From: a bacterium | GTDB taxonomy: Bacteria; Patescibacteriota; Minisyncoccia; Moranbacterales; DUUL01 | NCBI GenBank assembly: GCA_018675685.1 | Contig: JABGXP010000014.1 | Location: 81,288-145,287 of the forward strand | Direction: 5' to 3' | DNA: 64,000 nt | Shown here: positions 3,591 through 52,606 of the stretch, in pieces | How positions within the stretch are numbered: the stretch's first letter is position 1 | Layout: each line of letters starts with the position of its first letter | The notes under the pieces: model-generated | The model's database searches: none | What the model was told of the DNA's origin: nothing | What the model saw: only the letters and a program-made list of their open reading frames with translations | Program-made: the position numbers and the translations under genes

Positions 3591-4556
3591 ATGCACAAGA
3601 CAGTTTTATTAGCAGAATCAGCTTTTCAATTGAATCTAAAAAAAGGAGATGTAGTAGTCGATGCAACACTTGGAATGGGTGGACACACGATTGAACTTGC
3701 TAAAATAGTAGGTGAAAAAGGGAGAGTTATTGCAATTGATATGGATGCCGTTGCAATTCGTGAAGCAAAAAATCGAATTAAAAAAGAGCACAAAGAGTTT
3801 CTAGATAGAATAATTTTCGTAAAAGACAATTTCAAAAACATTGACAAAATAGTTGCTGGACAGGGGACTTCAGCAATTAAAGTAAAAGGTGTTTTAGCTG
3901 ATTTGGGCTGGAGAATCGAGCAAATCAATGATCCGGCATACGGTCTCAGCTTCAACGTTGATGCTAGACTCAATATGCGTCTAGATGAAGCTGGTGATAG
4001 TCCAGAAGACTCTGAGGATGCATTTGATATCATTAACTCTTGGTCAGCTGATGACCTAGAGAGATTATTCCGAGAGCTTGGAGAGGAGAGGTTTTCGAAG
4101 AGAATTGTTATTGCGATTAAAGAGGCAAGAAAAGAAAAGGAAATAAAAACAACGATGGAATTGGCCAATATTATAGAGGAATCAGTTGGTCACAGAGGAA
4201 GGAAAGGTGGGAGAAAAATACATCCAGCAACAAAAGTTTTTCAAGCACTTAGAATCCAAGTGAACAGTGAATTGAATAACTTAAATGTATTCTTGGAGAA
4301 CGCGCTTAAAGTATTGGAAAAGGATGGGCGTTTGGCAATTATCTCCTTTCATTCAATTGAGGATCGAATCGTGAAGAACTTTTGCAAGAGTGGTACAAAA
4401 GGATGTGTGTGTCCTAAGGAATTCCCAATCTGCAAATGTGGGAAAGAACCTAAATTGAAACTGATCACGAAAAAACCAATCATTCCTAGTGACTTGGAAC
4501 TTAAAGAAAATAGACGGGCAAGGAGTGCCAAGTTAAGGGTTATTCAAAAAAAATAG
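3591..4556 (+). CDS. rsmH: 16S rRNA (cytosine1402-N4)-methyltransferase RsmH
   Basis: SAM-binding GDVVVDATLGMGGHT, the RsmH/MraW fold, and position directly after mraZ. Confidence 0.9.
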   Translation: MHKTVLLAESAFQLNLKKGDVVVDATLGMGGHTIELAKIVGEKGRVIAIDMDAVAIREAKNRIKKEHKEFLDRIIFVKDNFKNIDKIVAGQGTSAIKVKGVLADLGWRIEQINDPAYGLSFNVDARLNMRLDEAGDSPEDSEDAFDIINSWSADDLERLFRELGEERFSKRIVIAIKEARKEKEIKTTMELANIIEESVGHRGRKGGRKIHPATKVFQALRIQVNSELNNLNVFLENALKVLEKDGRLAIISFHSIEDRIVKNFCKSGTKGCVCPKEFPICKCGKEPKLKLITKKPIIPSDLELKENRRARSAKLRVIQKK

Positions 4557-4604
4557 ACATAGAGGTATAAATAAAAAGTAAAAGTGTGAGGGGGCAACGT
4601 TGAT

Positions 4605-4970
4605 GTGGTAGCATATTCAGTTGCAACAAAAAAAGGAAAGATTGAAAGATGCAAAAAGATTCAAAAAAAGCATGAGTCTTCTTTTGGGTCTTCCTTATCT
4701 TCAATGGTTAACGCACTGACATTTGCGGTTGTTGTTGTTGGTGTGCTCTATGTAGCACAAACTAATAGACTAGCCACCATGGGGTATGAAATAAAAGAAA
4801 AAGAAAATGAAATCAACACACTATTTAAAGACAATGAAGCTCTTAAGATTAATGCCGCAGAGCTAAAATCGATGCATCATCTTGAGCTTAAGAAAGAAGA
4901 GATGAAACTAAGAAAGCCTCAAGAGATTGGTTATTTAGAGATTGATGATTCGGTAGCAATGGGGAGATAG
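4605..4970 (+). CDS. ftsL: cell-division protein FtsL-like (single TM plus coiled coil), GTG start
   Basis: Small bitopic protein (TM FAVVVVGVLYV followed by a coiled coil) sitting between rsmH and ftsI. A GAGGGGG Shine-Dalgarno lies 10 nt upstream of the GTG. Confidence 0.5.
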   Translation: MVAYSVATKKGKIERCKKIQKKHESSFGSSLSSMVNALTFAVVVVGVLYVAQTNRLATMGYEIKEKENEINTLFKDNEALKINAAELKSMHHLELKKEEMKLRKPQEIGYLEIDDSVAMGR

Positions 4971-4977
4971 GAACAAT

Positions 4978-6849
4978 ATGCTTAAAAAAGTTAAAAAAAG
5001 GAGAAAATCTGTGTCATCTGACTTGAAACAGAAAGTTCTACCAAGGTCCAGAGTGTATCTGGTTGTTTTTGCTATATTAATTTTTACGGGAATTATTGTT
5101 TTTCAATTGTATCGTCTACAAATCAAAGGCAATATTAAGTATACAAACCTAGCAAAAAAACAACACCAGGCAAGTAATAGAATTTTACCTTCAAGAGGCG
5201 AAATTTTTTTGTGTCAAAAAGAGGCAAAATTTTCATTAGCAGTTAACAAAGAACTTAAGACGGTTTTTGCTATGCCAAATGAGATTAAAGATCCAGTATT
5301 AACCGCGAGTATAATTGCCCCGATCTTAGACTTAGAAGAGACAGATGTTTTGAGAAAACTTTCAAAAAAAGGTGATTTATACGAAGTTTTAAGGCGTAAA
5401 ATTTCCAAAGAACTTTTCTTGAAGGTTGAAAAACTGAAATTGGAAGGGATTTATGGGGAAAGCGAATATTGGAGGTATTATCCAGGTAATTCGCTGGCAG
5501 CTCAAGTAGTTGGATTCGTTGGCTATAAAGAGGACAAACTATTTGGACAATATGGGATAGAGAGTAAATTAGAAGAAAGACTTAGTGGAAGAGAGGGTAT
5601 GATGGAACAAGAAAGGGATGTCTTTGGGAGGTGGATTTCAATTGGCTCCAAGTTAGTAACACCTGAGCGTGACGGACAAGATGTTGTTTTGACCTTGGAT
5701 CATGTTTTGCAGTTTAAGACAGAATCTGCACTTAAAAGTGCTATTAAAAGACACGATGCTGATAGTGGAAGAGTTATTATTACGAATCCAAGTACAGGCG
5801 AAATTTTAGCCATGGCTGCATACCCAACCTTTGATCCAAACGAATATTCAAAAGTTGAGGATATTAGTGTTTTTAAAAACTCTTTGATTTCAAATGAGTA
5901 TGAGTGTGGGTCTGTTTTTAAACCAATAACGATGGCTATTGGGCTAGACACAGAAAAAATTACACCAGAGACAACCTATATCGACAGAGGTTTTGTTGCA
6001 GAGGCTGGGTTTACTATTAATAATTCGGATAAAAAAGCATACCAAAAGCAAACAATGACACAGGTGATTGAGAAATCGCTAAATACAGGAGTTATCTTTG
6101 TTGAAAAAGAAATTGGAAATCAAGAATTTTATCGATATATAAAAGATTTTGGTTTCGGAGAAGTCACGGGTGTCTCCTTACCAGGAGAGGCTGACGGAAA
6201 CATCTCAAATTTAAAAAAGAATAGAGATATTGAATACTTCACTGCTTCTTTCGGGCAAGGAATTACTGTTACACCATTACAATTGGCAATGGCATACGGA
6301 GTGATGGCAAATGGAGGAGAGTTATTGAAGCCACAAATTATAAATAGTATTATTGATTTAAACGGAGCGGAAGAGAAATTTGAAACCAAGAAGGTTAAGT
6401 CTGTTATTTCTAAGAAAACATCTGAAGAGGTTTCTTTGATGCTAGAGAGTAATATTCTTAATGGACACGGGAAGTTAGCAGGAGTTCCAGGATACCGCAT
6501 CGCTGGTAAGACTGGAACAGCACAAATTCCTGATAAAGAGAACGGTGGATATTTAGAAGATGCAACCACTGGAACTTTCGCGGGATATGGACCTGTGGAA
6601 GATCCAATCTTTGCAATGGTTGTGATAATAGATTATCCTAAAGATGTGGAATGGGCAGAGAGTACAGCAGCCCCAGTTTTCGGAGAATTAGCGAAAGTAG
6701 TTCTTGATTATTATGGGGTAGAACCGACCGAGGAATATGATTTAAAGGATTTAGAAAAATTTGCAAAAACCCACAACTATCTTTTTAATAAAGAAGAAGA
6801 AATAAAAAATGAGTCATTAGAGACTGAAACAAGTAAGGATCAAGATTAA
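4978..6849 (+). CDS. ftsI: peptidoglycan D,D-transpeptidase (class B PBP, FtsI/PBP2-like)
   Basis: N-terminal TM and PBP dimerisation domain. Transpeptidase motifs SVFKP (SxxK), SNE, and KTGTA are present. Confidence 0.85.
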   Translation: MLKKVKKRRKSVSSDLKQKVLPRSRVYLVVFAILIFTGIIVFQLYRLQIKGNIKYTNLAKKQHQASNRILPSRGEIFLCQKEAKFSLAVNKELKTVFAMPNEIKDPVLTASIIAPILDLEETDVLRKLSKKGDLYEVLRRKISKELFLKVEKLKLEGIYGESEYWRYYPGNSLAAQVVGFVGYKEDKLFGQYGIESKLEERLSGREGMMEQERDVFGRWISIGSKLVTPERDGQDVVLTLDHVLQFKTESALKSAIKRHDADSGRVIITNPSTGEILAMAAYPTFDPNEYSKVEDISVFKNSLISNEYECGSVFKPITMAIGLDTEKITPETTYIDRGFVAEAGFTINNSDKKAYQKQTMTQVIEKSLNTGVIFVEKEIGNQEFYRYIKDFGFGEVTGVSLPGEADGNISNLKKNRDIEYFTASFGQGITVTPLQLAMAYGVMANGGELLKPQIINSIIDLNGAEEKFETKKVKSVISKKTSEEVSLMLESNILNGHGKLAGVPGYRIAGKTGTAQIPDKENGGYLEDATTGTFAGYGPVEDPIFAMVVIIDYPKDVEWAESTAAPVFGELAKVVLDYYGVEPTEEYDLKDLEKFAKTHNYLFNKEEEIKNESLETETSKDQD

Positions 6850-13975: not shown

Positions 13976-14091
13976 TTTTTGATTAACAGAAATCATTTTT
14001 TATAAGGATTTATTTGAACTATTTTTGAAATTATAACCAAAGTTTTTAATAAATACAACATTGCGGAATGAAGATTCTTTCATGTCAAGAG

Positions 14092-14120
14092 TTGACACCA
14101 TCCCAATGCAAGATTATAAT
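14092..14120 (+). promoter_or_regulatory. consensus sigma70 promoter TTGACA, 17 nt, TATAAT for nrdR-nrdD
   Basis: TTGACA at 14092-14097, 17-nt spacer, TATAAT at 14115-14120. Confidence 0.55.
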
Positions 14121-14147
14121 GTAGTAGTGTCATGGAGTACTTGATTG

Positions 14148-14163
14148 ACACAACATATTGTGC
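14148..14163 (+). promoter_or_regulatory. candidate NrdR box ACACAACATATTGTGC
   Basis: 16-bp near-palindrome matching the published NrdR-box consensus acaCwAtATaTwGtgt. It lies between the -10 and the nrdR start codon. Confidence 0.4.
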
Positions 14164-14197
14164 TATTATGTAGAAAAGAGTTAAATAAAACAAAATT

Positions 14198-14656
14198 ATG
14201 AAGTGTCCTTACTGTGGTCACAAGGAAACGAAGGTTGTTGATTCGCGAGAAATTGAAGACGGAAAGACGATCAGGAGGAGAAGGGAATGTGAGAAAGTGG
14301 AATGCAAGTTGAGATTTTCAACATATGAGCAAATTGAAACACTAAATTCGACTGTGTTGAAGCGCGACGGACAAAAAGAAGAATATAAAAGAGAGAAACT
14401 AGAAGAATCAATTAGAAGGGCAACAAACAAGAGATTGGAAGAATCTCAAATTGCACAAATTATTTCATCCGTTGAGTCCGAACTACGAACAAAGGGAAAA
14501 TGTGAGATGACTGCAAAGGAGATTGGAGAAGTAGTACTAACACATTTAAAAACACGCGATGAAGTTTCATATTTGCGATTTGCTTCAGTTTTTAAATCAT
14601 TTGGAACAGGAAAAAGATTTGTGAAAGAACTCGATAAGTTGGAGGAAAAAGAATAA
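14198..14656 (+). CDS. nrdR: transcriptional repressor NrdR
   Basis: N-terminal zinc ribbon MKCPYCGH...C..C followed by an ATP-cone (VLKRDGQKEEYKREKLEESIRRA). Confidence 0.9.
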   Translation: MKCPYCGHKETKVVDSREIEDGKTIRRRRECEKVECKLRFSTYEQIETLNSTVLKRDGQKEEYKREKLEESIRRATNKRLEESQIAQIISSVESELRTKGKCEMTAKEIGEVVLTHLKTRDEVSYLRFASVFKSFGTGKRFVKELDKLEEKE

Positions 14657-14764
14657 CAAAAAGATAAACACAAGAAAGGTAATTACATTTGGAAAGTTTT
14701 TGGCCAAAAATATTCCAATATTCCAATATCCATAATATATTAATTTTTGCGGGGGCAAACAAAA

Positions 14765-16894
14765 ATGAAAAAAGGGAAAAAACAGGTAGCTGCAAAGAAA
14801 GTGAACATTGCAAGAGCTACAAAAGGGGCGAAAACAAAGAAAAAAAGATTTGTACCGAAATTTAGCGAAGTTGTGAAAAGAGATGGCTCGGTGGTTAAAT
14901 TCTCTCAGAAAAAGATTTCAGAGGCTGTCTACAAGGCCTTCAAAGAGGTTGATGAGGGAAGTCTAGTGAAAGCAAGAGCTGTGTCAGAGAAAGCAGCTAG
15001 AATGCTGAGTAAGAACTGTGCACGTGGATATGTTCCGAGTATTGAAGAGGTTCAGGATACGGTTGAGAGAGTTTTAATGGTACTAGATTTTGAGGAAACA
15101 GCCAAAGCATATATCTTATATCGAGATAAGCGAAGAAAAATCAGAGACACAGAAGCTTCTTTGGAAGAAGCGGTTGAATTAGTGGATCAATACCTAAGAG
15201 AACTTGATTGGCAAGTGAAGGAAAATTCAAACATGGCATATTCCTTGCAAGGTTTGAATAATTACATTTCTTCAATTGTGAGTAGTAAGTACTGGATGGA
15301 AAGAATCTATGCAAAGAAAATTAAACGTTCGCATGAAGAAGGAGATCTACATATACATGACTTGGATAAATTAGCAGCTTATTGCTGTGGCTGGGATCTT
15401 CAAGATTTATTAAATAGAGGGTTCACAGGAGTTCCTGGAAAGATTTCCTGTAAACCACCACGACATTTTAGAACGGCGCTTGGACAATTAGTCAACTTCT
15501 TCTACACAACGCAGGGTGAAACAGCTGGAGCTCAAGCATTTTCAAACATTGATACATTGCTTGCACCATTTATTAAGTATGACAAGTTAGACTACAAAGC
15601 CGTGAAACAGGCTATTCAGGAATTTGTTTTCAATTTAAATGTTCCAACAAGGGTCGGATTTCAAACTCCATTTACCAATATCACATTAGACCTAGAGGTA
15701 CCAAAGATGTTCAAGGATCAGAATGTGATTAGGGGTGGTCAATTACAGGAAGACAAGTATGGTGATTTTCAAGAAGAGATGGACATGTTTAATCGGGCAT
15801 TTGCTGAAGTGATGAGCGAGGGTGATGCAAACGGAAGAGTGTTCACATTTCCAATTCCTACATATAACATTTCGAAGAAATTTAATTGGGATAACAAGAA
15901 TTTGGACAAAGTCTGGGAGATGACAGCTAAATATGGAATTCCATACTTTGCAAACTTCATTAATTCTGATATGGACCCAGAAGACGCTCGTTCAATGTGT
16001 TGCAGGCTAAGACTTGACAACAGAGAACTTCGGAAGAGAATGGGTGGCTTGTTTGGAGCTGCACCGCTAACAGGTTCAATTGGCGTTGTGACAATCAATC
16101 TTCCAAGAATTGGATACCTAGCAAAAGATAAAAAAGATTTCTATAAGAGATTAGATGTCCTAATGGATATCGCCAGAGACAGTTTGGAGGTCAAACGGAA
16201 GGTTATCGATAATTTTACAAAGAAAGGTTTGTATCCATATGCTGCATTCTATCTAGATGGGACGTTGCAAAGAAAGGGAAGTTGTTGGTCAAATCATTTC
16301 TCAACAATCGGCCTTGTGGGAATGAACGAGGCTGTTGTAAACTTGATTGGAAAATCAATTACCACAAAAACCGGAGTAAAATTCGCAGAAGAGGTTTTGG
16401 TTCATATGAGAGAGCGCATGATAAAATTCCAGACAGAAACTGATAATTTATATAACCTAGAAGCAACACCAGCAGAAGGAACAAGTTACCGACTAGCCCT
16501 CAAGGACCAAAAGCGTTTTCCAAAGATGATTTTTGCAAATAACGGAGCGGTAGAAGAAGGAGCTCAACCATATTACACAAACTCCTCGCAATTGCCTGTT
16601 GGACATACTGACGATCTATTTGAAGCACTGGACTTGCAAGATAAGTTGCAAACGAAGTATACTGGCGGGACTGTGCTACATGGATTTCTCGGAGAGCGAA
16701 TTAATGATATTAATACAACGAAAAGTCTTGTGAAAAAAATTGCCTCAAATTATGAGATGCCATATTTCACACTTTCTCCGACTTTCAGTGTTTGTCCAGT
16801 TCACGGGTATTTAACAGGAGAGCACAAGGCATGTCCAAAATGTGTTGCTCATTTGCCAGAGAAATATTCCAAGAAGTCTGCAGAGGTTAAATAA
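14765..16894 (+). CDS. nrdD: anaerobic ribonucleoside-triphosphate reductase NrdD (class III RNR) catalytic core; it lacks the glycyl-radical module
   Basis: Lys-rich N-terminus and an ATP-cone (VVKRDGSVVKFSQKKISEAV), then a large class III RNR barrel. It ends with a CPVHGY...CPKC zinc-ribbon-like segment but no RxxGY. ATG 14765 is preferred over the track's TTG 14747 because a GGGGG Shine-Dalgarno lies 8 nt upstream. Confidence 0.85.
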   Translation: MKKGKKQVAAKKVNIARATKGAKTKKKRFVPKFSEVVKRDGSVVKFSQKKISEAVYKAFKEVDEGSLVKARAVSEKAARMLSKNCARGYVPSIEEVQDTVERVLMVLDFEETAKAYILYRDKRRKIRDTEASLEEAVELVDQYLRELDWQVKENSNMAYSLQGLNNYISSIVSSKYWMERIYAKKIKRSHEEGDLHIHDLDKLAAYCCGWDLQDLLNRGFTGVPGKISCKPPRHFRTALGQLVNFFYTTQGETAGAQAFSNIDTLLAPFIKYDKLDYKAVKQAIQEFVFNLNVPTRVGFQTPFTNITLDLEVPKMFKDQNVIRGGQLQEDKYGDFQEEMDMFNRAFAEVMSEGDANGRVFTFPIPTYNISKKFNWDNKNLDKVWEMTAKYGIPYFANFINSDMDPEDARSMCCRLRLDNRELRKRMGGLFGAAPLTGSIGVVTINLPRIGYLAKDKKDFYKRLDVLMDIARDSLEVKRKVIDNFTKKGLYPYAAFYLDGTLQRKGSCWSNHFSTIGLVGMNEAVVNLIGKSITTKTGVKFAEEVLVHMRERMIKFQTETDNLYNLEATPAEGTSYRLALKDQKRFPKMIFANNGAVEEGAQPYYTNSSQLPVGHTDDLFEALDLQDKLQTKYTGGTVLHGFLGERINDINTTKSLVKKIASNYEMPYFTLSPTFSVCPVHGYLTGEHKACPKCVAHLPEKYSKKSAEVK

Positions 16895-16945
16895 TTAGCA
16901 AATAAATAGTTTACATATTTAATAAAACCATAAAAAACAAAAAAA

Positions 16946-17224
16946 ATGGTAAAAGTTACAAAACAAAAAATAGGGGAAAGTGAAATAGTTTGTCATGACT
17001 GCGGCAAGACAATGGCGGAAGGTGACATGTGCGTGCCTTATGATGTGGCAAAAAAAACTTTCTACAAGTGCGATAAATGCTTTGTAAAAGATGATTCATT
17101 AAGAAATTATCAAGAGACAGAGGTTTATTCTAGGATCGTTGGTTATATTAGACCAGTGAAGCAATGGAATGTTGGGAAGACAGCAGAATACGCTGATAGA
17201 AAAGAGTATTGTGTAGAAGCTTAA
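16946..17224 (+). CDS. stand-alone NrdD C-terminal module: Cys4 zinc ribbon plus glycyl-radical motif (RIVGY)
   Basis: CHDCGK..(18)..CDKC then YSRIVGYIRPVKQWNVGKTAEYADRKEY is the canonical class III RNR C-terminus. It is in the same frame as nrdD but separated from it by three in-frame stops (TAA, TAG, TAA) over 51 nt. Confidence 0.7.
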   Translation: MVKVTKQKIGESEIVCHDCGKTMAEGDMCVPYDVAKKTFYKCDKCFVKDDSLRNYQETEVYSRIVGYIRPVKQWNVGKTAEYADRKEYCVEA

Positions 17225-17300
17225 GTTTGCTGAAGGTGTAACGAAAGTTGCACCTTCTTCTTTTTACCTAGAAAAAAGAAATTAAAAATTAAGAAGTAAA

Positions 17301-18368
17301 ATGAGAAAAAGAATCGAGAAGTTTAAGGAAACATTTCATGCCCAGTCCTTCATTGCTGGAATCGTCGCGATTGTTTTTTTAGCGGGACTGTTTGTTTTTG
17401 TTTCTAATTTTAGTTTGGGTTTTAACGCAGTTGGGATCTCTACAATGATCGGTGAAGATAAGGTTGCTAGTATAATGAAGGATTTAGTGGAAAATAATTT
17501 AACTAAGAAGGGAACAGATGTAGCTGTCGAGAATGTTGAGTTTATTAAGGAACTGGGATTGTATGAAGTTAAGATGAAGCTTGCTGGGAAGGCAGAAACT
17601 AGTGCTTTTTTAAGTAGGGACGGGAAATATTTTGTTAAAGAGGCTGCAAGTTTGGAAGAAATTAAGTCAAAACGTGAGGCTCAAGAAGAGGCTGCAGCTG
17701 GGGAAGCGGAAAGAAAAAGAGATATCAAGATTCCCAAAACCAAAAAACCTAATGTTGAAGTTTTTGTGATGAGTCACTGTCCATTTGGAACACAGGTGCA
17801 AAAAGGTTTTCTACCTGTTATCAAAAAACTCGGAAGTAAGGCGGATATAAATTTCAAGTTTGTGGATTATTTAATGCATGGAAAAAAAGAATTGACTGAA
17901 AATTTGAATCAATATTGCATTGAGCAAGAGGAAAATAAAAAATACTTGAAATACCTGGAATGTTTTTTGGGTAGCACAGGAGAGGCGAGTGATTCAACGA
18001 GTTGTATGAAGGAGTTCGGAATTTCTGAAAAGAAAATTGCAAGCTGCAGTACCAAAGTTGATGAGAAATTTCTCATAAGTAAGCAGTTCGCAGACAAAAC
18101 TACTTGGCAAGGAGGAAAATACCCGCTTTTTAATTTGCAAAAAGAAGAAAATGACAAATATAAAGTTGGGGGATCACCAACTATCGTGATTAACGGTGTT
18201 ACCGTTGAACCAAACCGAGATCCGAAGAGTCTTTTAAAAACGGTATGCTCAGCCTTTGAGGAGGCTCCAAAGGAGTGTGAAGAGGTCGTTCCCTCTCAAA
18301 CACCGTCTCCGGGATTTGGCATTGGGAAGGCCCCAACAGTTTCAAGTGATGGAGGTTGCGAAGAATAG
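17301..18368 (+). CDS. membrane-anchored thioredoxin-fold thiol:disulfide oxidoreductase (DsbA-like, CPFG active site)
   Basis: N-terminal TM, a VFVMSHCPFGTQ CxxC motif, and GGSPTIVINGV (cis-Pro loop region). Ser/Gly/Cys-rich C-terminal tail. Confidence 0.55.
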   Translation: MRKRIEKFKETFHAQSFIAGIVAIVFLAGLFVFVSNFSLGFNAVGISTMIGEDKVASIMKDLVENNLTKKGTDVAVENVEFIKELGLYEVKMKLAGKAETSAFLSRDGKYFVKEAASLEEIKSKREAQEEAAAGEAERKRDIKIPKTKKPNVEVFVMSHCPFGTQVQKGFLPVIKKLGSKADINFKFVDYLMHGKKELTENLNQYCIEQEENKKYLKYLECFLGSTGEASDSTSCMKEFGISEKKIASCSTKVDEKFLISKQFADKTTWQGGKYPLFNLQKEENDKYKVGGSPTIVINGVTVEPNRDPKSLLKTVCSAFEEAPKECEEVVPSQTPSPGFGIGKAPTVSSDGGCEE

Positions 18369-18495: not shown

Positions 18496-20169
18496 CTATA
18501 ACCCTAGGAATCCGCCTCTATCAATTAGCTTTGAGCTATGAAGCCTTAGTTGACCATCAACGGATTTCTTGGAGTACAAAAGTTGAGTGTTTTTATCATA
18601 AATAACATCCCTGTTCTCTATTTCGACATCATTCTTTTGAACATTAACAAGCTCGATATGATCACGAGTATCAATCCCCGAAGACTTCACGGTGTCTCCA
18701 ATTGTAAAGAAGATGTTCTCATAATCTTCTATCCATTGAACGTTATAGATTGGAGCAGATGATCTGGTGATCATAAATTTCTCACCCTTTTCCCTGATTG
18801 GTTGGACCTCCCAGTCTCGTAACATAACGTACCAAATTTCATTATCACTCCAATATAAAAGCTTCTTCCCATCATCAGAAAATTGAATATCTTGAATTTC
18901 TCCTGAAAGTTCCTTGATGGAAACTTCACCTTCCTCTTTTTCATAATTAAAAAGAAAGAGTTTTTGATTAGGCGTCATGATTGCAATCCTGTATTGATCA
19001 TAAGTAACCATTTTTACAAAAGAGTCCTTATCTGTAATCGTTAAGATGCTGGCAATTTGTTTCTTAGTTTCAATATCGTTATTTTTGATTTCCCAAATTG
19101 AGTTGTCGACCAAATGGAAATAATAGATTCTGTTACCAGCAAAATCAAAGCCACCAACCTGATTGTCTAGTAAGAGTGCCTGATCTGGTTTTTGAATATC
19201 AACATAAAGAAGCTCGTGGTTTTTTGTTAAAATGACCAACTCATCGTTTTTATTGAACATCCAGCGAACTTGCTTGAACTCTATTTTATCAGAAGCATTT
19301 TCCGTAACATCATCTTTTATTTGTGTGGTTTCTGGGATGATTGTTGCTTGGTTTGTAGAAACTTCTTCGTTTAAACTTGGCACTGTAGAGATTTTTTGAT
19401 CAGCTTTTTTGCTAATTCCTTTTTCCTTTGATGTTTCTGTTTCCAAGCCTTTCTTGATTGTTACCCCATTTTCTTCTTTAAAAAGATCGTTTAGCACAAT
19501 AATGTCTTCTAGATTTTCTTTGTCTACCTTGGCAATTATGAAAATTTTCTCACCGTCAGATGATGAGAAGGGCATAAGAATCCTTTTATTGTCGCTGCTC
19601 CATTCAACATTCTCTTTTTCAGATTGTGGGAGGAAATTGAATTCAGAAGTTTCGTATATTGTTTTCACAGAGTTATCTTCAGTATTCAACAGAGCGACAA
19701 TTCTTAAGTCATCTTTTTCTGAAAAAAGGACAACTTCAGTATTGTTTCTTGGAGAAAGAAAGAATTGTTTTACATTTTCAACGATAAATGTGTTTTCCTC
19801 AAGCCCTGTATTGGGAAGCAGAAGAATATTCCAAAACTCTGTTGAGATTCCGGAGTGGACATTAATTGTTTTACTCCAAGAAGTATAGCCCTCCTTTTTG
19901 CAGGCAATAGTGTGTTTTCCTGGTCTAATACCATTCAATGTATAGGACCCATTAATAACGCTTAATTTACTCTTCTTTTGTTTTTTATTATCAACATAGA
20001 TGTCTATATCTCGAGGAGCACTTTTAATGGTAATAGACCCGCTATATACAAAAATGTTATTTACTGTGTCAAAGCGATATCCTTTTGCAAAGAGTACGAT
20101 TACAGGAGCTGTTAGAAAGAACAGAATGATAAAGAACAATAAATATAATCGTCTTTGGGTAATTGTCAT
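18496..20169 (-). CDS. membrane-anchored surface protein with a PEGA domain and beta-propeller-like repeats
   Basis: N-terminal TM and a PEGA-like segment (ITIKSAPRDIDIYVDNKK...IACKKEGYTSWSKTINV). Repetitive beta-rich C-terminal region. Confidence 0.45.
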   Translation of the reverse strand: MTITQRRLYLLFFIILFFLTAPVIVLFAKGYRFDTVNNIFVYSGSITIKSAPRDIDIYVDNKKQKKSKLSVINGSYTLNGIRPGKHTIACKKEGYTSWSKTINVHSGISTEFWNILLLPNTGLEENTFIVENVKQFFLSPRNNTEVVLFSEKDDLRIVALLNTEDNSVKTIYETSEFNFLPQSEKENVEWSSDNKRILMPFSSSDGEKIFIIAKVDKENLEDIIVLNDLFKEENGVTIKKGLETETSKEKGISKKADQKISTVPSLNEEVSTNQATIIPETTQIKDDVTENASDKIEFKQVRWMFNKNDELVILTKNHELLYVDIQKPDQALLLDNQVGGFDFAGNRIYYFHLVDNSIWEIKNNDIETKKQIASILTITDKDSFVKMVTYDQYRIAIMTPNQKLFLFNYEKEEGEVSIKELSGEIQDIQFSDDGKKLLYWSDNEIWYVMLRDWEVQPIREKGEKFMITRSSAPIYNVQWIEDYENIFFTIGDTVKSSGIDTRDHIELVNVQKNDVEIENRDVIYDKNTQLLYSKKSVDGQLRLHSSKLIDRGGFLGL

Positions 20170-20901: not shown

Positions 20902-22230
20902 ATGTCAAAGAAAAAAAAGAAAAACGGGGGGCATGCAAAGAAAGAGATAATAGAATCAAACGTAAAAAAAGAAGCAATGAAAAAAGAAGACTCATTAAAG
21001 ACCGAGATGAAAAAAAGGGAAGAAGAAATCAAGGTGAACGCTGTCTCAAAAGAGGAAGTTAAATCAGAAGAAGAAATTGTTGGTCAAACAACACTTTCAG
21101 AATTGGATGAAAAGACAGAAAATCAAAAAACAATAAAAAATCTTGTTTCAGCTGTAATTTTGCTTTCAGGGATTGCAGTCGGTAGTTTTTTCGTTGATAT
21201 CGTCCAGTTTATGAGTGGTGATGGTTTCTCAAAGCGAGCTTTAGACAATTCCGAAGTATTGGTCGCAGGAGATCGAACCTGGGTAGCTTTTAATGAACCA
21301 GCCATTGATGTAAAAGTTTTGACTGTGAGTGAGGAAGAAATGAAGAATTGCAAGAATTGTGACACAAAGGAAGTGCTACTCTGGTTAAGGGATTACATTC
21401 CAACAATGGTAGTAAATAACGTGGATGCAGAATCAGAAGAAGGGAAGGCAATGATTGAAGCATATGAAATTAAATCATTACCAGCATTTTTCTTTTCTGA
21501 GGAAATCGAACAAACAAAGTTTTTCCAAGGTGAAGGTAGAGTTGTTTTCGCAGAAAAGAATGATTCTTTTATGCTAAATGCTGCTGGACTTGGAATCCCA
21601 GTCGGAAAGTATCTACAAACTCCTGAAGTAGGCGAAACAGATGCAATTCTTGGCAACAAAGAAGCGAAGGTGAAAGTGGTTGTTTTCTCTGATTTCCAGT
21701 GTCCATATTGTGGAGAACATTTTAAAAATGCAAAAGAAGCCGTTAAAGGTTTTAGCGAAGAAGAAGTTGCTCTTGTGTATAAAGACCTACCATTAAACTT
21801 TCATTTGCAAGGGAAAAATGCAGCAATGGCCGCAAGATGCAGTCAGGATCAAGAGAAATTTTGGGAAATGGGAGAACTGCTATATAGCTCACAAAAGGAT
21901 TGGCAGGACACTGAAGGAATTGCACAATTCAAAAAATATGCTAGAGAGCTAAAACTTGATACATTTAAATTTAACAAGTGTATGGATGATCGATCTGCAG
22001 AAGCTCTTGTTGATGAGGATTTGGCTCAGGCAAAGGAAATTGGAGTAACTGGAACACCAGCAACATTTGTTGGAACTCAGTTTGCAAGCGGAGTTGTTAC
22101 TGCACTAGAAATTAAAGCAATGATTCAAAATGAGTTGGATGGCGACATTGATGAGATGGACGCTGATATATTAGAAGATGTTTCAAGCGAAATGGAAGAA
22201 GAAACAGAAGAAGAAGTTAAAGTTCAATAA
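20902..22230 (+). CDS. membrane-anchored DsbA-family thiol:disulfide oxidoreductase (CPYC)
   Basis: Lys-rich N-terminus and a TM segment, then VVVFSDFQCPYCGEHF and the GVTGTPATFVG cis-Pro region of the DsbA/thioredoxin fold. Acidic C-terminal tail. Confidence 0.6.
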   Translation: MSKKKKKNGGHAKKEIIESNVKKEAMKKEDSLKTEMKKREEEIKVNAVSKEEVKSEEEIVGQTTLSELDEKTENQKTIKNLVSAVILLSGIAVGSFFVDIVQFMSGDGFSKRALDNSEVLVAGDRTWVAFNEPAIDVKVLTVSEEEMKNCKNCDTKEVLLWLRDYIPTMVVNNVDAESEEGKAMIEAYEIKSLPAFFFSEEIEQTKFFQGEGRVVFAEKNDSFMLNAAGLGIPVGKYLQTPEVGETDAILGNKEAKVKVVVFSDFQCPYCGEHFKNAKEAVKGFSEEEVALVYKDLPLNFHLQGKNAAMAARCSQDQEKFWEMGELLYSSQKDWQDTEGIAQFKKYARELKLDTFKFNKCMDDRSAEALVDEDLAQAKEIGVTGTPATFVGTQFASGVVTALEIKAMIQNELDGDIDEMDADILEDVSSEMEEETEEEVKVQ

Positions 22231-27950: not shown

Positions 27951-30650
27951 CTAAAGTGAGATCCTTAGAATATCACCATTTTTAGTGCTAATAAATGCTC
28001 GATCCTGTTTTTCATTGACCCAGAAGTGTTCAGCATCTATGAATTTTTCACTGAATTTTTTCACTGTCTCCGATTGATTGCTCTTTAAAATCTTCATAAG
28101 AACCCCGTTTTTTGAGTCCAAAGAATATATATTACTTGGTTGAGACCTAGTTTCGATATCGACAATTCTTGTCTCTTCATAATCATCATTTTTTGCAGAG
28201 AAAGAAGTTTTTAATTTTCCTTCAAAGTATTGTTGAATTTCTCCGTTTTCAGATGCCACCAAAAGTGAATCATCAACCGCTAAGTCAATTGCTGCTGAAA
28301 AGAATTGTTGGTTCGGTATCCTGATTTTATAATTATGAAAACCTCCTGGTTTGCGAGGAAATTGATAGATATTCTTTGAATTATTATCAAGAATATAAAG
28401 ATATTGGAGATAAACCCCAGCTCCTCCAATGGCAAGATTGTTAGGGAGTTTAATATCAACATCTGTAAAGCGATTTGTTACGGGGCTATAAGAAAAAACA
28501 CGCTTTTCTGAAATAAGGAAGACCAGTCTAAGGGTCGGCATAGATACAAGTGTTTTGGTTTCTTTCATATCATTCTTAAGAGGGACTTCTTTCAAATTAT
28601 TATTGGTGATGTCTAATCGGAAGAATTTTCCTGAAGCTGTGAGGATGAATAATTCGTCCTTATCTCCAGTTAAAGCTTTAATCTCCTCATTAACAGCTGC
28701 TATTGTTGTTGTTTCTGTCTCACTTTCGGAACCTCCTCTTTTTTGATCATTTATTATCTCGGTAGTTGAGGTTTCATTGAAAGCTTTATTTCCAATTAAT
28801 TTAGACAAAAATGAGAATAAGAAAATCAACGCCAAGAGAGAAATCGTGCCTATAAGAATTATTTTTTTGTATTTTCTTGTAAGCAAAACAAACTTTCTCT
28901 TGAGTCTCCCCAAATCTTTTTGTTTTGAGATTGCTATAACAGAGGTAATTGAACTCGTCATGGCATCTCGAAAAGAAGTTTTTATTTGTGTATCAGTTGG
29001 TTTTGTACTTTCGCTGGCAATGTTATTTCCCTTCCCGATTCTCTTCTCTCCAGAGACAAGAGAATTAATCTTAGCATGCATAGCTGTGTAGAGCTCCTTG
29101 ATTTTTTCTGTCAATTTAAGGAATATAGACTTTAGCTCATTCAGAATCCTTTGAAAATCAATTAAATCAAGTTTCTCTTTCACTTTTTTTAAATAGACGC
29201 CAATGGTTCTTCGAACACTCTTGGCTTGTTTTTCTTTAAATGTAGACTCTTCTTTTTTTCGTATCTCTCCATTTTTTACACGCATAAACTCTCTTTCTTT
29301 ACGAATCGTTTCTTTTTCTGCCTCCATTTTTTCTTGCTCCTCTAGTTCTTTCGATGGTTCAATGGGGTAGGATATGCTGTTATTGAAAGAGAGGTCTTTT
29401 ATGTTGTCATCTGATTTCCCAAGCTTAATTTTCGAAATTAAAGGGATTGAACTTGCTGAAATATTGTTATTTTTTTTCAAATCCTCAAGAGTTTTTTTGG
29501 CTTTATTTAAAATAGAATTAAAGCTCTTCTCATTGGTGTCGTCAATTTCCTTCATTTCAAGAACTTCTTTATTCCCATCAGCTTCTTTAATAAAAAGTTC
29601 CGGTTGCTCTTCAAACGGAGAAATAGGAGATGATCCCACAGTTTTGTTTTTTTGTTCCGTAGGCGCAGTTGGTTTGTTCGGAATATTCACTGCCCCTTTC
29701 TTTGCCTTTTTAGACAATTCTATTTCTCCGTCTCTTGTCTTTTTTGGTATTAATGAGGAGATTGGGGCCTCTGTCGTGATACTAACTTCTTTGTCTTTGG
29801 TATTTTTAGTCTCCTGTTCTATGTTTTTTAGTGAGCGGCATCTTTTGCCTAGAGAGGTCTTTGGAGTGAACGCTTCACTTTCTCCAAAAAAATTAAGCTT
29901 TGCGAGATCTTTTTCTTTTGGAGCCGAAGTCACGCTTTTCTCTTTGATGTTAGTGATAACAACCCCCACATCCTCTCCCTCTAAGTCCAAAGTTGATTTG
30001 AGAATATTATCAAATTCACTGGAAGTAAAGGTTTTTGTGTGGCGAGTGATTTCCTCCCAAGAAAGGGAGTCAAAAAGTTTCTTTGTTGAAAAAATAAGTT
30101 TATCTCCAATTGAGAGTTCACCATAAGAAATATCAGAAAATGTTTTCACAGGGTGCACGTTTTTTTCCTCATTTAACCCCTTTGATATTTCAGCAATTTT
30201 TTTATTCTTGGAGAGAAAAATTTGTCCATTCCCAAGCTTAGTAAAATGGAGTTCATTTCCGCTGATAACTCCAATAACAGCATCTAAATTATTGATCCAG
30301 TTTGTTATTTCATGTTGAGCAAGATCCTCTAATGCCAGGTTGATCTTATTAAGGGCACTTCCAAAACTTTCCTCTGTTCCCCTGTTTGGTTTTAAGAAGA
30401 ATTCTCGCTTAATCACCTGGGAAAGAAGATTCGGAAGATAGGCGGATCCTTCTGAGTTGTCATTACTTCTGATTATACCAAAAAGGTCTCCCAATTTACG
30501 TTGGGCTGGATTCTCTCCCTCAAAATGAAAAGTGTTTGAAAATGGTTGCAAAGCTTTATCTTTACAGACCGCCACCAAGAAGGAATCTAATTCAATTTCA
30601 ATTTTAGATTTTTTTTCTTTAATATTGTTGTGCATAGCAAAATATTTCAA
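27951..30650 (-). CDS. large (899 aa) membrane protein with an N-terminal cytoplasmic domain, a low-complexity/coiled-coil linker, one TM, and an extracytoplasmic beta-rich domain
   Basis: Long intact ORF with a TM at IILIGTISLLALIFLFSFL, a K/E-rich coiled-coil middle section, and a repetitive beta-strand-like C-terminus. Confidence 0.5.
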   Translation of the reverse strand: MKYFAMHNNIKEKKSKIEIELDSFLVAVCKDKALQPFSNTFHFEGENPAQRKLGDLFGIIRSNDNSEGSAYLPNLLSQVIKREFFLKPNRGTEESFGSALNKINLALEDLAQHEITNWINNLDAVIGVISGNELHFTKLGNGQIFLSKNKKIAEISKGLNEEKNVHPVKTFSDISYGELSIGDKLIFSTKKLFDSLSWEEITRHTKTFTSSEFDNILKSTLDLEGEDVGVVITNIKEKSVTSAPKEKDLAKLNFFGESEAFTPKTSLGKRCRSLKNIEQETKNTKDKEVSITTEAPISSLIPKKTRDGEIELSKKAKKGAVNIPNKPTAPTEQKNKTVGSSPISPFEEQPELFIKEADGNKEVLEMKEIDDTNEKSFNSILNKAKKTLEDLKKNNNISASSIPLISKIKLGKSDDNIKDLSFNNSISYPIEPSKELEEQEKMEAEKETIRKEREFMRVKNGEIRKKEESTFKEKQAKSVRRTIGVYLKKVKEKLDLIDFQRILNELKSIFLKLTEKIKELYTAMHAKINSLVSGEKRIGKGNNIASESTKPTDTQIKTSFRDAMTSSITSVIAISKQKDLGRLKRKFVLLTRKYKKIILIGTISLLALIFLFSFLSKLIGNKAFNETSTTEIINDQKRGGSESETETTTIAAVNEEIKALTGDKDELFILTASGKFFRLDITNNNLKEVPLKNDMKETKTLVSMPTLRLVFLISEKRVFSYSPVTNRFTDVDIKLPNNLAIGGAGVYLQYLYILDNNSKNIYQFPRKPGGFHNYKIRIPNQQFFSAAIDLAVDDSLLVASENGEIQQYFEGKLKTSFSAKNDDYEETRIVDIETRSQPSNIYSLDSKNGVLMKILKSNQSETVKKFSEKFIDAEHFWVNEKQDRAFISTKNGDILRISL

Positions 30651-51646: not shown

Positions 51647-52606
51647 TCAAGTTGTGCTTTTTCTTCCTAGCATTTCAAGGAGAGAGGGGAGTGCAAAGTG
51701 AACGACAATTCCAATTCCAATAGCTGAAAGTGGCACCCAGTAGAGCGCGTGACAATTTTCAAGGAGATACCAAGTTGCAACGAGAGCCGTTACTCCTGCA
51801 GTATCAAACTTCCAACCATAATCGCTGAGTTCTACATGTTTCCAGGTATTAGCAATAAGAGCTATTGCCAAAACGATAAGCGCTAGTACCCACGGCAACT
51901 TTTTTGTATTTTCGCAAGTAGTTGATGTCCCCTTAACATCTCCAGCATTTTCTGATCCTGCTCCTTCCTCGGAAATTATTGGTGTGTTTTCGCCGAGAAC
52001 TTCAGCCTCTTCTTCTGGTAAGTTCTCTGTTAGACCAAGCACGCGTCCTTGGTCAGTAAGAATATCTTCCTCGGTTTCATCTTCTGTTGCTACGCGTGAT
52101 TCTATTTCAAATTCAATATCAAATTTTGCTTCTAAGTTTTGATATTCATTACCAGCATCTTCATCGAATTTTATTTTAATGCGATATTCTTTGCCTTTTG
52201 TAGCGCTCAGACGGTCCATGTATAACTCTTCTTCATCTGCCTTTTTCAAGTCATAGCGGTCCCCTGGTCCGCCAATCCGATAACTCCCATTCTCAACCCT
52301 GATAACATATAGTTTCAATTCTTCTGCTAATTTCTTGTCACCCTTAAGGTCAATAGTAAAAAATAAATTAATATCATCTGTTTCGCTGTCATTTTCCACT
52401 CTAATAGTTTTCTTTTCTTGCCAACCAGGCAGGATGTTAGTGAAATCGAAAATAGCACTTTCATTTAAATTTGTTCCCACTGGATATTCAACATCGATTT
52501 TGTCATCTGCCCAAGCAATGTTTGTGAAAAAAACTCCACTAAAAAGCAAGCTTATTGTAAGTAAGAAGAATTTTTTCAGTCCAAATTTTATACCATCTTT
52601 TTTCAT
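51647..52606 (-). CDS. TasA/camelysin-like secreted protein with a C-terminal multi-TM membrane anchor
   Basis: Signal peptide, then a TasA-like domain (ILPGWQEKKTIRVEN; AGNEYQNLEAKFDIEFEIE, paralleling NAGNEYQGDQMTFNIELY in the 55591 gene). An acidic linker and 2-3 hydrophobic helices follow at the C-terminus. Its start overlaps the upstream gene's stop by 4 nt. Confidence 0.45.
   Translation of the reverse strand: MKKDGIKFGLKKFFLLTISLLFSGVFFTNIAWADDKIDVEYPVGTNLNESAIFDFTNILPGWQEKKTIRVENDSETDDINLFFTIDLKGDKKLAEELKLYVIRVENGSYRIGGPGDRYDLKKADEEELYMDRLSATKGKEYRIKIKFDEDAGNEYQNLEAKFDIEFEIESRVATEDETEEDILTDQGRVLGLTENLPEEEAEVLGENTPIISEEGAGSENAGDVKGTSTTCENTKKLPWVLALIVLAIALIANTWKHVELSDYGWKFDTAGVTALVATWYLLENCHALYWVPLSAIGIGIVVHFALPSLLEMLGRKSTT

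What the first reader, a model, noticed from the sequence alone, without database searches (positions are those of the whole stretch)
14765..17224. Class III RNR (NrdD) split so that the zinc-ribbon plus glycyl-radical module is a separate 92-aa ORF
The 715-aa NrdD core ends without an RxxGY glycyl-radical motif. After three in-frame stops and a 51-nt spacer, a 92-aa ORF encodes exactly the canonical NrdD C-terminus (CxxC-18-CxxC followed by RIVGYIRPV...WN.GK..E). Both ORFs are intact, so the radical-bearing module would be a separate polypeptide. This is conceptually like the spare-part protein GrcA/YfiD for pyruvate formate-lyase, and I do not recall it being described for RNRs. The core additionally ends with its own CPVHGY..CPKC segment. 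No NrdG activase (CxxxCxxC radical-SAM) was found anywhere in the 64 kb, although nrdR sits directly upstream.
Basis: partly seen in the sequence, partly recalled or inferred. Interest (0 to 1): 0.65.

Follow-up and report, generated by a model that had tools for sequence, protein, structure and literature searches.

The report
Two-piece anaerobic ribonucleotide reductase
In this uncultured (Moranbacteria-like) bacterium the oxygen-sensitive enzyme that makes DNA building blocks has lost its radical-carrying tail. That tail is instead encoded by a conserved 92-residue gene next door, which belongs to a large, apparently undescribed family of candidate "spare-part" radical proteins for this enzyme.

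Summary
The NrdD core (14765/14747-16894) keeps its ATP-cone, barrel and zinc ribbon but stops before the glycyl-radical loop. After 51 nt with three in-frame stops, a 92-aa ORF (16946-17224) encodes a second zinc ribbon plus EVYSRIVGY...QWNxGK.

It is not an artefact or a unique lesion.
- 35-37 of the 120 closest NrdD cluster representatives are truncated in the same way, in about 8 separate clades.
- 7 of 7 truncated cores chosen blind have the small ORF directly downstream.
- Both genes are under purifying selection.

The small ORF family is large: the best 150 profile hits are all 42-159 aa. It occurs in three settings:
- downstream of full-length NrdD, as in cultured Minisyncoccus;
- unlinked in genomes that hold a full NrdD;
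- inside PerR/rubrerythrin/superoxide-reductase clusters, and in phages.

One locus (L250) shows the core's own tail freshly frameshifted.

Best reading: a GrcA/YfiD-like spare-part paralogue for class III RNR arose first. In this lineage the core then lost its own radical domain, leaving an obligate two-subunit enzyme. A 2026 review states that no spare part is known outside pyruvate formate-lyase.

Open points: nrdG was not found for this lineage, and no biochemistry exists.

The parts
14092..14120 (+). Sigma-70-like promoter (TTGACA-17-TATAAT, 12 of 12) upstream of nrdR
   Evidence: This is a consensus match only; function is inferred.
14148..14163 (+). NrdR-box-like palindrome ACACAACATATTGTGC, 35 nt upstream of the nrdR start
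   Evidence: It has 2 mismatches to the ACACWATATATWGTGT consensus, which I recalled from memory. It is the only such site in the window. About 0.9 such sites are expected by chance, so the argument rests on its position and is weak.
14198..14656 (+). nrdR (152 aa): Zn-ribbon_NrdR + ATP-cone repressor
   Evidence: PF22811 E 4.5e-20; PF03477 E 3e-18. The order nrdR-nrdD-small ORF is conserved in relatives.
14765..16894 (+). NrdD core lacking the glycyl-radical loop. It holds the ATP-cone (about 14867-15136), the barrel with the SMCCRLRL finger loop, and the zinc ribbon CPVH...CPKC at 16793-16843. A 16-aa non-conserved tail follows at 16844-16891, then the stop at 16892-16894. The longest ORF starts at TTG 14747.
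   Evidence: The core aligns to T. maritima NrdD 4COI residues 104-612. P0267 is a 100% identical protein on 7 contigs. pN 0.07-0.08 against pS 0.71-0.79 versus relatives.
16895..16945 (+). A/T-rich 51-nt spacer with two further in-frame stops (TAG 16907, TAA 16931). No Shine-Dalgarno-like motif and no terminator.
   Evidence: No Rfam family matched in 14000-18000 at E<=1. Spacer length and relative frame vary among relatives.
16946..17224 (+). 92-aa stand-alone glycyl-radical domain protein. Zinc ribbon C16/C19...C42/C45 (16991-17080). Radical motif EVYSRIVGY (17120-17146) with the predicted radical Gly66 at 17141-17143. C-terminal helix QWNVGKTAEY.
   Evidence: Invariant columns across 32 homologues are listed. 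The profile tail aligns to 4COI 612-644. The AF2 model has pLDDT 78.8, with a beta-hairpin at 59-62/67-70 and a helix at 71-83. pN 0.09-0.145 against pS 0.75-0.83.
17232..17267 (+). Intrinsic terminator-like hairpin (11-bp stem, GAAGGTGTAACGAAAGTTGCACCTTC) plus a T-run, directly after the small ORF
   Evidence: It is the only + strand terminator-like site between nrdR and the next gene. This suggests an nrdR-nrdD-small ORF transcription unit (inferred).

Best explanation
The locus encodes a class III (glycyl-radical) ribonucleotide reductase made of two polypeptides. The roughly 80-kDa core carries the ATP-cone, the catalytic barrel with the thiyl-radical finger loop, and a zinc ribbon, but no radical glycine. 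The 92-aa protein is a complete, free-standing copy of the NrdD C-terminal glycyl-radical domain: zinc site, Gly loop and tail.

Proposed mechanism (inferred):
- An NrdG activase, encoded elsewhere in the genome, installs the radical on Gly66 of the small protein.
- The small protein docks into the core barrel and places Gly66 next to the finger-loop cysteines, so catalysis proceeds as in one-piece NrdD.
- Oxygen would then destroy only the cheap 10-kDa subunit, which can be replaced.

Proposed history (supported by comparative data):
1. The small gene arose as a paralogue of the NrdD tail and served beside full-length NrdD as a GrcA/YfiD-like spare part. This state is still seen in Minisyncoccus, other CPR bacteria, Desulfobacterales and phages.
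2. In several lineages, including this one, the core's own radical tail then decayed, making the small protein obligatory.
For: Shown:
1. The two ORFs divide the NrdD profile exactly. NF006126 positions are 3-655 against 641-682, and 4COI residues are 104-612 against 612-644.
2. The split recurs. 37 of the 120 closest NrdD cluster representatives keep the zinc ribbon but lack the Gly motif. After the two intein-containing proteins are removed, 35 of 118 are truncated; these form 8 all-truncated clades needing at least 8 changes. An NJ tree of the loci also places truncated cores in at least 4 positions.
3. Blind test: 7 of 7 truncated cores, picked by core sequence alone, have a PF13597 small ORF of 81-103 aa directly downstream.
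4. Decay series of core tails...EQKTEVFLKVGEE...TVYLKVVMAD...EVYSQIVS*...QVYSRIVD*. In L250 the old tail is still readable out of frame with an internal stop, beside an intact small ORF and nrdG.
5. Purifying selection acts on both genes although synonymous sites are saturated. 20 columns are invariant across 32 small ORFs, including four zinc-ligand positions (C16, C19, C42, C45), His17, and the R-x-V-G-Y of the radical motif.
6. Where the core is full-length, the small ORF's 30-aa tail is 83-100% identical to its own core's tail, against about 78% to other cores. Some loci show gene-conversion tracts and others show diverged synonymous sites. Unlinked pairs in the same MAG match at 26 of 30 positions. 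The tail therefore tracks its cognate NrdD.
7. nrdG follows the small ORF in truncated-core loci L008, L011, L015, L016 and L250.
8. Stand-alone copies in CPR bacteria sit in FUR-family/rubrerythrin/desulfoferrodoxin/SOD/hemerythrin clusters. Phages also carry copies.
9. Published structures describe the NrdD glycyl-radical domain as a Zn site + Gly loop + tail that moves as a rigid, highly dynamic body (PMC11226230).
Against: - No NrdG was found in the 64-kb window, and none could be tied to this lineage's contigs. The whole sub-clade lacks an adjacent nrdG.
- There are no biochemical, transcript or peptide data.
- The AF2 model of a fused core+small construct was poor (pLDDT 62.6, tail below 50), so docking is not supported structurally. 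Foldseek with the small-ORF model gave no significant hit.
- The core keeps its own zinc ribbon, so the complex would hold two zinc modules. How both fit is unknown.
- There is no Shine-Dalgarno motif before the small ORF.
- The rest of the genome is unseen, so another RNR or pure salvage cannot be excluded.
Confidence: 0.75

Rival explanations
1. The small protein is real and conserved but is not the catalytic radical donor. It might act as a regulator, an NrdG decoy or chaperone, a radical or oxygen sensor, or a stress protein. The truncated core would then have a non-reductase role or be inactive.
For: - No docking model is available.
- Stand-alone copies sit in stress operons that could fit a sensor role.
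- No nrdG was located for this lineage.
- The extra zinc ribbon is unexplained.
Against: - The truncated cores stay under strong purifying selection over the whole barrel, including the MCCRL finger loop.
- They remain under nrdR.
- In 7 of 7 blind cases they keep the small ORF.
- The small ORF's tail tracks the cognate NrdD tail, as expected if both must fit the same pocket.
- The core's tail decays only where a small ORF is present.
Confidence: 0.13
2. The NrdD pathway in this lineage is a decaying relic: a pseudogenised NrdD with a leftover fragment, in a symbiont that salvages deoxynucleotides.
For: - CPR bacteria have reduced metabolism (general knowledge).
- nrdG is absent from the window.
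- The core's tail is clearly degenerate.
Against: - pN/pS is about 0.1 for the core and 0.11-0.19 for the small ORF, with saturated synonymous sites.
- The arrangement is kept across an 8-member clade and seven other truncated clades.
- Neither ORF contains a frameshift or internal stop.
- The core scores 1032 bits against NF006126, whose cutoff is 548.
Confidence: 0.04
3. One polypeptide is made after all, by stop-codon read-through, frameshifting, ribosomal bypass of the 51-nt gap, an intron, or split-intein trans-splicing.
For: The two ORFs are in the same frame in the window and in L004. T4 nrdD is known to contain an intron, and T4 gene 60 has a 50-nt bypass (own knowledge).
Against: - The gap holds three stops of two kinds.
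- The relative frame is 0, 1 or 2 and the gap runs from about 4 to more than 100 nt in relatives.
- No Rfam intron matched.
- The small ORF has a conserved Met start and exists unlinked, in phages, and beside full-length NrdD.
- The flanks are too short for split-intein halves and have no HN/C junction (sequence).
Confidence: 0.02
4. The split is an assembly or sequencing artefact.
For: None beyond the prior that metagenome assemblies contain indels.
Against: The identical core protein occurs on 7 contigs. The same architecture appears in JGI, ENA, NCBI and Logan assemblies from different samples.
Confidence: 0.01

Closest known systems
GrcA/YfiD of E. coli and Y06I of phage T4 (autonomous glycyl-radical cofactors, or spare parts, for pyruvate formate-lyase)
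   Same: [quoted passage not shown]
- It coexists with the full-length enzyme in many genomes.
- It is linked to oxygen-stress genes.
- Phage-encoded versions exist.
- It is expected to be activated by the parent enzyme's activase.
   Different: - The parent enzyme is different (NrdD, PF13597). There is no match to the PFL-type Gly_radical family at E<=0.01; that GrcA belongs to PF01228 is my own knowledge.
- It carries a zinc ribbon, where GrcA has a disordered N-terminus (PMC13450708).
- In this window and about 8 clades the parent enzyme has lost its own radical domain, so the small protein is obligatory rather than a spare. This is not known for PFL.
- Function is untested.
Canonical one-piece class III RNR (NrdD with NrdG; T4, E. 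coli, T. maritima, P. copri)
   Same: ATP-cone, barrel, finger-loop Cys, zinc site and RxVGY...WNxGK tail are all present in the locus. nrdR control and nrdG adjacency are seen in relatives.
   Different: The radical glycine is on a separate gene product. The zinc module is duplicated, one copy on each polypeptide. nrdG is not adjacent in this sub-clade.
Class I RNR (catalytic alpha subunit plus a separate radical-harbouring beta subunit)
   Same: The stable radical sits on a small separate subunit that must dock onto the catalytic subunit. This is a functional analogy and is inferred.
   Different: The small subunit is unrelated (a ferritin-like metallo-radical protein versus a glycyl-radical hairpin). 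Class I uses long-range radical transfer, whereas here the Gly loop would insert directly into the barrel.
Genes-in-pieces RNRs in phages (Aeromonas phage Aeh1 nrdA split by the mobE homing endonuclease; T4 nrdD group I intron). Recalled from memory.
   Same: An RNR catalytic subunit is interrupted at the gene level yet remains functional.
   Different: No homing endonuclease, intron or intein lies in the gap. The split follows duplication of the domain and loss of one copy, not an insertion. It is vertically conserved in cellular lineages.

Membership tests
Class III RNR catalytic subunit NrdD (PF13597 / TIGR02487 / NF006126) | N-terminal ATP-cone plus 10-stranded alpha/beta barrel core | tested here: met
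   Pfam gives ATP-cone E 1.7e-20 and NRDD E 2.7e-185 over positions 1-528 of 562. NF006126 scores 1032 bits against a cutoff of 548. The core aligns to 4COI, 8P23 and 9D3X.
Class III RNR catalytic subunit NrdD (PF13597 / TIGR02487 / NF006126) | Finger-loop cysteine(s) that carry the thiyl radical | tested here: met
   SMCCRLRLDNRE is present in the core. M411, C412, C413, R414 and L415 are invariant among 31 aligned homologues. Assigning this loop as the thiyl site rests on published NrdD knowledge.
Class III RNR catalytic subunit NrdD (PF13597 / TIGR02487 / NF006126) | C-terminal structural zinc site | tested here: met
   The core has CPVH-x9-CPKC (16793-16843). The small ORF has its own CHDC-x22-CDKC. 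Metal binding itself was not tested.
Class III RNR catalytic subunit NrdD (PF13597 / TIGR02487 / NF006126) | Glycyl-radical motif (RxxGY) on the same polypeptide as the barrel | tested here: not met
   The core ends 16 aa after CPKC without the motif. The motif is on the separate 92-aa ORF.
Class III RNR catalytic subunit NrdD (PF13597 / TIGR02487 / NF006126) | Cognate radical-SAM activase NrdG | tested here: inconclusive
   Absent from the 64-kb window. Present right after the small ORF in relatives L008, L011, L015, L016, L250 and Minisyncoccus. Not linked to this lineage's contigs. The rest of the genome is unavailable.
GrcA/YfiD-type spare-part protein (autonomous glycyl-radical cofactor) | Small stand-alone protein that is a copy of the parent enzyme's glycyl-radical domain | tested here: met
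   The 92-aa ORF matches only the last ~50 positions of the NrdD profiles. The best 150 hits among 1.84 billion representatives are all 42-159 aa.
GrcA/YfiD-type spare-part protein (autonomous glycyl-radical cofactor) | Sequence membership in the GrcA / PFL Gly_radical family | tested here: not met
   Pfam lists only PF13597 at E<=0.01. The resemblance is therefore analogy, not family membership.
GrcA/YfiD-type spare-part protein (autonomous glycyl-radical cofactor) | Coexists with an intact full-length parent enzyme | tested here: not met
   Not met in this window, where the core is truncated. Met in relatives: 12 loci have a full-length NrdD followed by the small ORF, and two Desulfobacterales MAGs hold unlinked pairs.
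GrcA/YfiD-type spare-part protein (autonomous glycyl-radical cofactor) | Radical installed by the parent's activase; restores activity of the oxygen-cleaved enzyme | not testable with these tools
   This needs anaerobic biochemistry (EPR and activity assays). The only indirect support is oxidative-stress gene neighbourhoods in 7 of 8 CPR stand-alone loci.
Gene split by an intron, intein or homing endonuclease | Self-splicing RNA, intein domains or an endonuclease ORF at the junction | tested here: not met
   No Rfam hit in 14000-18000 at E<=1. The gap is 51 nt with no ORF. Intein-bearing NrdD homologues do exist elsewhere (P0367 and P0378, 1027 aa), but not here.

The most novel reading that the evidence does not exclude
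A widespread, so far unrecognised family of autonomous glycyl-radical proteins is dedicated to class III ribonucleotide reductase. It is found in CPR/Patescibacteria, Desulfobacterota, archaea and their viruses. It would be the first spare-part system for a glycyl-radical enzyme other than pyruvate formate-lyase. In about eight lineages, including this window's, it would have become the obligatory radical subunit. Class III RNR would then be a two-subunit enzyme (catalytic core plus small radical-bearing subunit), as class I RNRs are.
Probability: 0.65. Interest if true: 0.9.

Novelty: new variant of a known kind. Interest (0 to 1): 0.85.

Why it matters
All glycyl-radical enzymes are cut at the radical glycine by oxygen. 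Only pyruvate formate-lyase is known to have a replaceable spare part. Papers from 2021 and 2026 state that whether other such enzymes have one is an open question (PMC8683613, PMC13450708).

This locus and its relatives offer concrete candidates for the enzyme that makes all DNA precursors in anaerobes. Some come from a cultured organism (Minisyncoccus archaeiphilus) and from phages. The truncated cores are a natural knock-out of the built-in domain and make the idea directly testable.

- It would show that the glycyl-radical domain of an RNR can work in trans.
- It would suggest how minimal-genome anaerobes and their viruses cope with transient oxygen.
- It would give an evolutionary example of a one-piece radical enzyme becoming a catalytic-plus-radical two-subunit enzyme.
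- It would correct annotation. These 80-140-aa genes are currently named as whole reductases; the ANMV-1 virus 'nrdD' is one example.

Tried and rejected
1. Intron: the Rfam E-value scan of 14000-18000 found nothing.
2. Structure of a fused core+small construct, built on 30 full-length homologues: mean pLDDT 62.6 and tail below 50, so it is uninformative for docking.
3. Foldseek of the small-ORF model against the PDB: only generic zinc fingers at E>0.1. phmmer of the small ORF alone against the PDB also missed NrdD. Only the family profile aligned to 4COI 612-644, and that at a non-significant whole-sequence E-value of 0.03.
4. Locating nrdG for this lineage. All four attempts came back empty:
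   - motif scan of the window;
   - tblastn with a relative's NrdG;
   - metagenome scan with an NrdG alignment;
   - protein search followed by matching on contig lengths.
5. dN/dS proper: synonymous sites are saturated, so only pN and pS are reported.
6. Neighbour clustering of the Desulfobacterales stand-alone loci: no recurrent functional partner. The genes look monocistronic.
7. Read-through, bypass and split-intein readings were rejected on variable frame and spacing, the stop codons, and the short flanks.
8. Literature: eight full-text searches found no description of a split NrdD or an RNR spare part. The library holds open-access papers only.
Full report
**1. Observation**

- The window is 36.5% G+C. 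Its genes (PBP, PriA, DnaK, AcrB-like, ATP synthase) and its closest relatives (Candidatus Moraniibacteriota / Parcubacteria MAGs) mark it as CPR/Patescibacteria chromosome.
- ORF 14747..16894 (715 aa from TTG; ATG at 14765 is the likelier start) is ATP-cone + NrdD (PF13597 positions 1-528 of 562, E 2.7e-185). It ends ...CPVHGYLTGEHKACPKCVAHLPEKYSKKSAEVK* with no glycyl-radical motif.
- The stop at 16892 is followed by in-frame TAG (16907) and TAA (16931). ATG 16946 opens a 92-aa ORF with CHDC-x22-CDKC and ETEVYSRIVGYIRPVKQWNVGKTAEYADRKEY.
- This ORF matches only the last ~50 positions of the NrdD profiles (Pfam 510-562, E 1.1e-11; NF006126 641-682).
- Against T. maritima NrdD the core covers residues 104-612. 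The small-ORF family profile picks up at 612-644. The two genes therefore divide the enzyme at one point, but the zinc ribbon is present on both.
- nrdR lies upstream and a strong terminator-like hairpin follows the small ORF.
- No radical-SAM CxxxCxxC ORF and no NrdG-like sequence is in the 64 kb.

**2. Not an artefact, not a unique lesion**

- A protein identical to the core is on 7 contigs.
- The same nrdR-nrdD(truncated)-small ORF order, within the same def-priA-ligB synteny, appears in independent JGI, ENA, NCBI and Logan assemblies.
- Of the 120 closest NrdD cluster representatives, 37 keep the zinc ribbon but lack the Gly motif.
- After the two intein-containing proteins are removed, 118 remain and 35 are truncated. 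On an NJ tree these form 8 all-truncated clades, and Fitch parsimony needs at least 8 changes (no support values). The window sits in an 8-member clade.
- As a blind test I picked seven truncated cores by core sequence only. All seven have a PF13597 ORF of 81-103 aa directly downstream.
- Between the window and two relatives, synonymous sites are saturated (pS 0.71-0.83). pN is 0.07-0.08 for the core and 0.09-0.145 for the small ORF. Both are under purifying selection.
- Across 32 small ORFs 20 columns are invariant, including four zinc-ligand positions (C16, C19, C42, C45), His17, the R-x-V-G-Y of the radical motif, and QWN.

**3. What the small ORF is**

- A search with the 92-aa ORF returned 179 proteins. 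Nearly all of the 120 listed are 65-130 aa.
- A profile search of 1.84 billion cluster representatives gave 4261 hits at E<=1e-3 and 771 at E<=1e-10. The best 150 are all 42-159 aa.
- No Pfam, NCBIfam or PHROGs model is dedicated to this family.
- In 80 genome loci the family occurs in three contexts:
  - (A) Directly downstream of a full-length NrdD that keeps its own EVYSRVVGY tail. There are 12 such loci, including the cultured Minisyncoccus archaeiphilus, where nrdG follows.
  - (B) Downstream of a truncated core, as in the window.
  - (C) Alone, with no nrdD within 6 kb. There are 24 such loci from Desulfobacterales, Syntrophales, Saccharibacteria and other CPR bacteria, and a Methanophagales MAG.
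- Two Desulfobacterales MAGs hold both an unlinked small gene and a full nrdD-nrdG locus. The small protein's tail is 26/30 identical to that NrdD's tail.
- In class A the 30-aa tail is 83-100% identical to its own core's tail, against about 78% to other cores. Some loci show long identical nucleotide runs (59 nt in L024), which points to gene conversion. Others have diverged synonymous sites, which points to selection.
- The small protein therefore follows its cognate NrdD.

**4. Direction of evolution**

- Truncated cores carry remnants of the lost motif...EQKTEVFLKVGEE (L008)...TVYLKVVMAD (L015)...EVYSQIVS*...EVYSEIVS*, and ...QVYSRIVD*. The last group stops essentially at the radical glycine.
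- L250 is a snapshot of the process. Its core ends ...CEVHLA**. The old tail is still legible in another frame with an internal stop (VVGYLCPTS*WNTGKAEEYANRKEFV). The small ORF and nrdG downstream are intact.
- The order of events is therefore duplication first (full enzyme plus small copy), then repeated loss of the built-in domain.
- A second kind of split also exists. Here the core has a zinc ribbon and a low-complexity tail, followed by a 45-55-aa ORF that is only M..K/R..CEVYSRVVGYLRPVxQWNxGK, followed by nrdG (L113, L114, L125, L137, L139, L167).

**5. Functional clues**

- In 7 of 8 CPR stand-alone loci the small gene is flanked by oxidative-stress genes, verified with Pfam:
  - FUR-family regulator - small ORF - rubrerythrin - desulfoferrodoxin (L026);
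  - rubrerythrin with or without desulfoferrodoxin (L023, L028);
  - FUR - small ORF - Fe/Mn SOD (L033);
  - FUR (L036, L045);
  - hemerythrin (L040).
- In IMG/VR, most of the best 80 loci are stand-alone small ORFs without nrdD or nrdG within 4 kb. Their neighbours are phage genes: RNA ligase, polynucleotide kinase, RuvC- and SbcC-like proteins, tape measure.
- The GenBank archaeal virus ANMV-1 has a 144-aa member annotated 'anaerobic ribonucleoside triphosphate reductase'. Its paper read this gene as a whole RNR (PMC4372165).
- Together these mirror GrcA/YfiD and T4 Y06I for pyruvate formate-lyase.
- Published cryo-EM and HDX work on P. copri NrdD describes the glycyl-radical domain as Zn site + Gly loop + tail, moving as a rigid and highly dynamic body (PMC11226230). 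That makes action in trans plausible.
- The AF2 model of the small ORF (pLDDT 78.8) has a zinc-ribbon hairpin, a beta-hairpin with Gly66 at its tip, and a C-terminal helix.

**6. Mechanism (inferred)**

- NrdG makes the radical on Gly66 of the small protein.
- The small protein docks in the core barrel next to the MCCRL finger loop, and catalysis proceeds as in one-piece NrdD.
- Oxygen cleaves only the small subunit, which can be replaced.
- In genomes with a full-length NrdD, the same protein would rescue oxygen-cleaved enzyme.
- Confidence that the split is real and selected is about 0.97. Confidence that the small protein is the radical donor is about 0.75.

**7. Weak points**

- nrdG was not found for this lineage. 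The sub-clade lacks an adjacent nrdG, and my scans did not hit its contigs.
- The fused AF2 model was poor and Foldseek gave nothing.
- Two zinc modules would have to coexist in the complex.
- No expression or biochemical data exist.
- The trees have no support values.

**8. Comparison and novelty**

- The locus works like GrcA/YfiD but is not a member of that family. The small ORF matches only PF13597 and carries a zinc ribbon.
- The core is an NrdD that fails one defining feature: the radical glycine is not on the same chain.
- Full-text searches found no description.
- A June 2026 review states that formate lyases are the only glycyl-radical enzymes with identified spare parts, and that it is 'yet to be determined' whether others exist (PMC13450708). 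See also PMC8683613.
- I rate it a new variant of a known kind, with high interest (0.85).

Noticed in passing
L113 1781-1951, L114 2634-2813, L125 2831-3001, L137 537-887, L139 612-803, L167 2837-3004 (also L110 and L156, which are ambiguous): A second, different split of NrdD. The core keeps its zinc ribbon (CPxCDEEIGY...) and a low-complexity tail. A 45-55-aa ORF follows that is only the Gly-radical loop (M...CEVYSRVVGYLRPVxQWNxGK) with no zinc ribbon of its own, and then nrdG. It was seen on several independent metagenome contigs.
   Followed up: partly
L250 5030-5530 (GCA_053939025.1, JBMXOQ010000003.1): A freshly decayed core tail. NrdD ends ...CEVHLA**, and the former tail is still readable out of frame with an internal stop. 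It sits beside an intact 86-aa small ORF and nrdG.
   Followed up: yes
L026 5639-7273; L028 5905-7265; L023 5872-6898; L033 4596-6102; L036; L040; L045: Stand-alone small NrdD-tail genes in CPR bacteria sit in oxidative-stress clusters: a FUR-family regulator, rubrerythrin, desulfoferrodoxin, Fe/Mn SOD, hemerythrin.
   Followed up: yes
L170-L249 (IMG/VR); L253 3857-4291 = ANMV-1 virus KP703175.1, AJP62049.1: Phage and archaeal-virus contigs carry stand-alone small NrdD glycyl-radical proteins without nrdD or nrdG nearby. The ANMV-1 copy (144 aa) is annotated, and was published, as a whole anaerobic RNR.
   Followed up: partly
L024 (core 3860-6001 versus small ORF 6013-6303); also L014 and L021: The first 59 nt of the tail region (from the EVYSR codons) are identical between the full-length NrdD and the adjacent small ORF. 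This suggests gene conversion between the two copies.
   Followed up: partly
window 14148-14163: An NrdR-box-like palindrome, ACACAACATATTGTGC, lies in the nrdR promoter region. It is the only such site in the window, and none is evident in the 108-nt nrdR-nrdD gap.
   Followed up: partly
window 17301-18368 and 20902-22230: Two thioredoxin-fold proteins lie near the RNR genes. The first is a 355-aa protein directly downstream with an apparently hydrophobic N-terminal segment (read from the sequence, not tested) and weak GILT, Thioredoxin_4 and DF-family hits; it is conserved at this position in L004/L005. The second is a 442-aa Thioredoxin_4/DsbA protein. Any relation to RNR reduction is unknown.
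   Followed up: no
P0367 and P0378 (1027-aa NrdD homologues): These close truncated-type NrdD homologues carry intein or LAGLIDADG domains (PF14890; PF14528 in P0367 only) inside the core.
   Followed up: no
window 27951-30650 (-), 18496-20169 (-), 52603-54948 (-): Large ORFs of 899 and 557 aa have no Pfam match at E<=1e-5. A 781-aa ORF carries lamin-tail domains.
   Followed up: no
L013, L014, L051, L069, window, L004, L006, L086-L089, L251, L252: This whole NrdD sub-clade lacks an nrdG next to nrdD, whereas sister clades have nrdD-(small ORF)-nrdG. The activase gene appears to have moved elsewhere in these genomes.
   Followed up: partly
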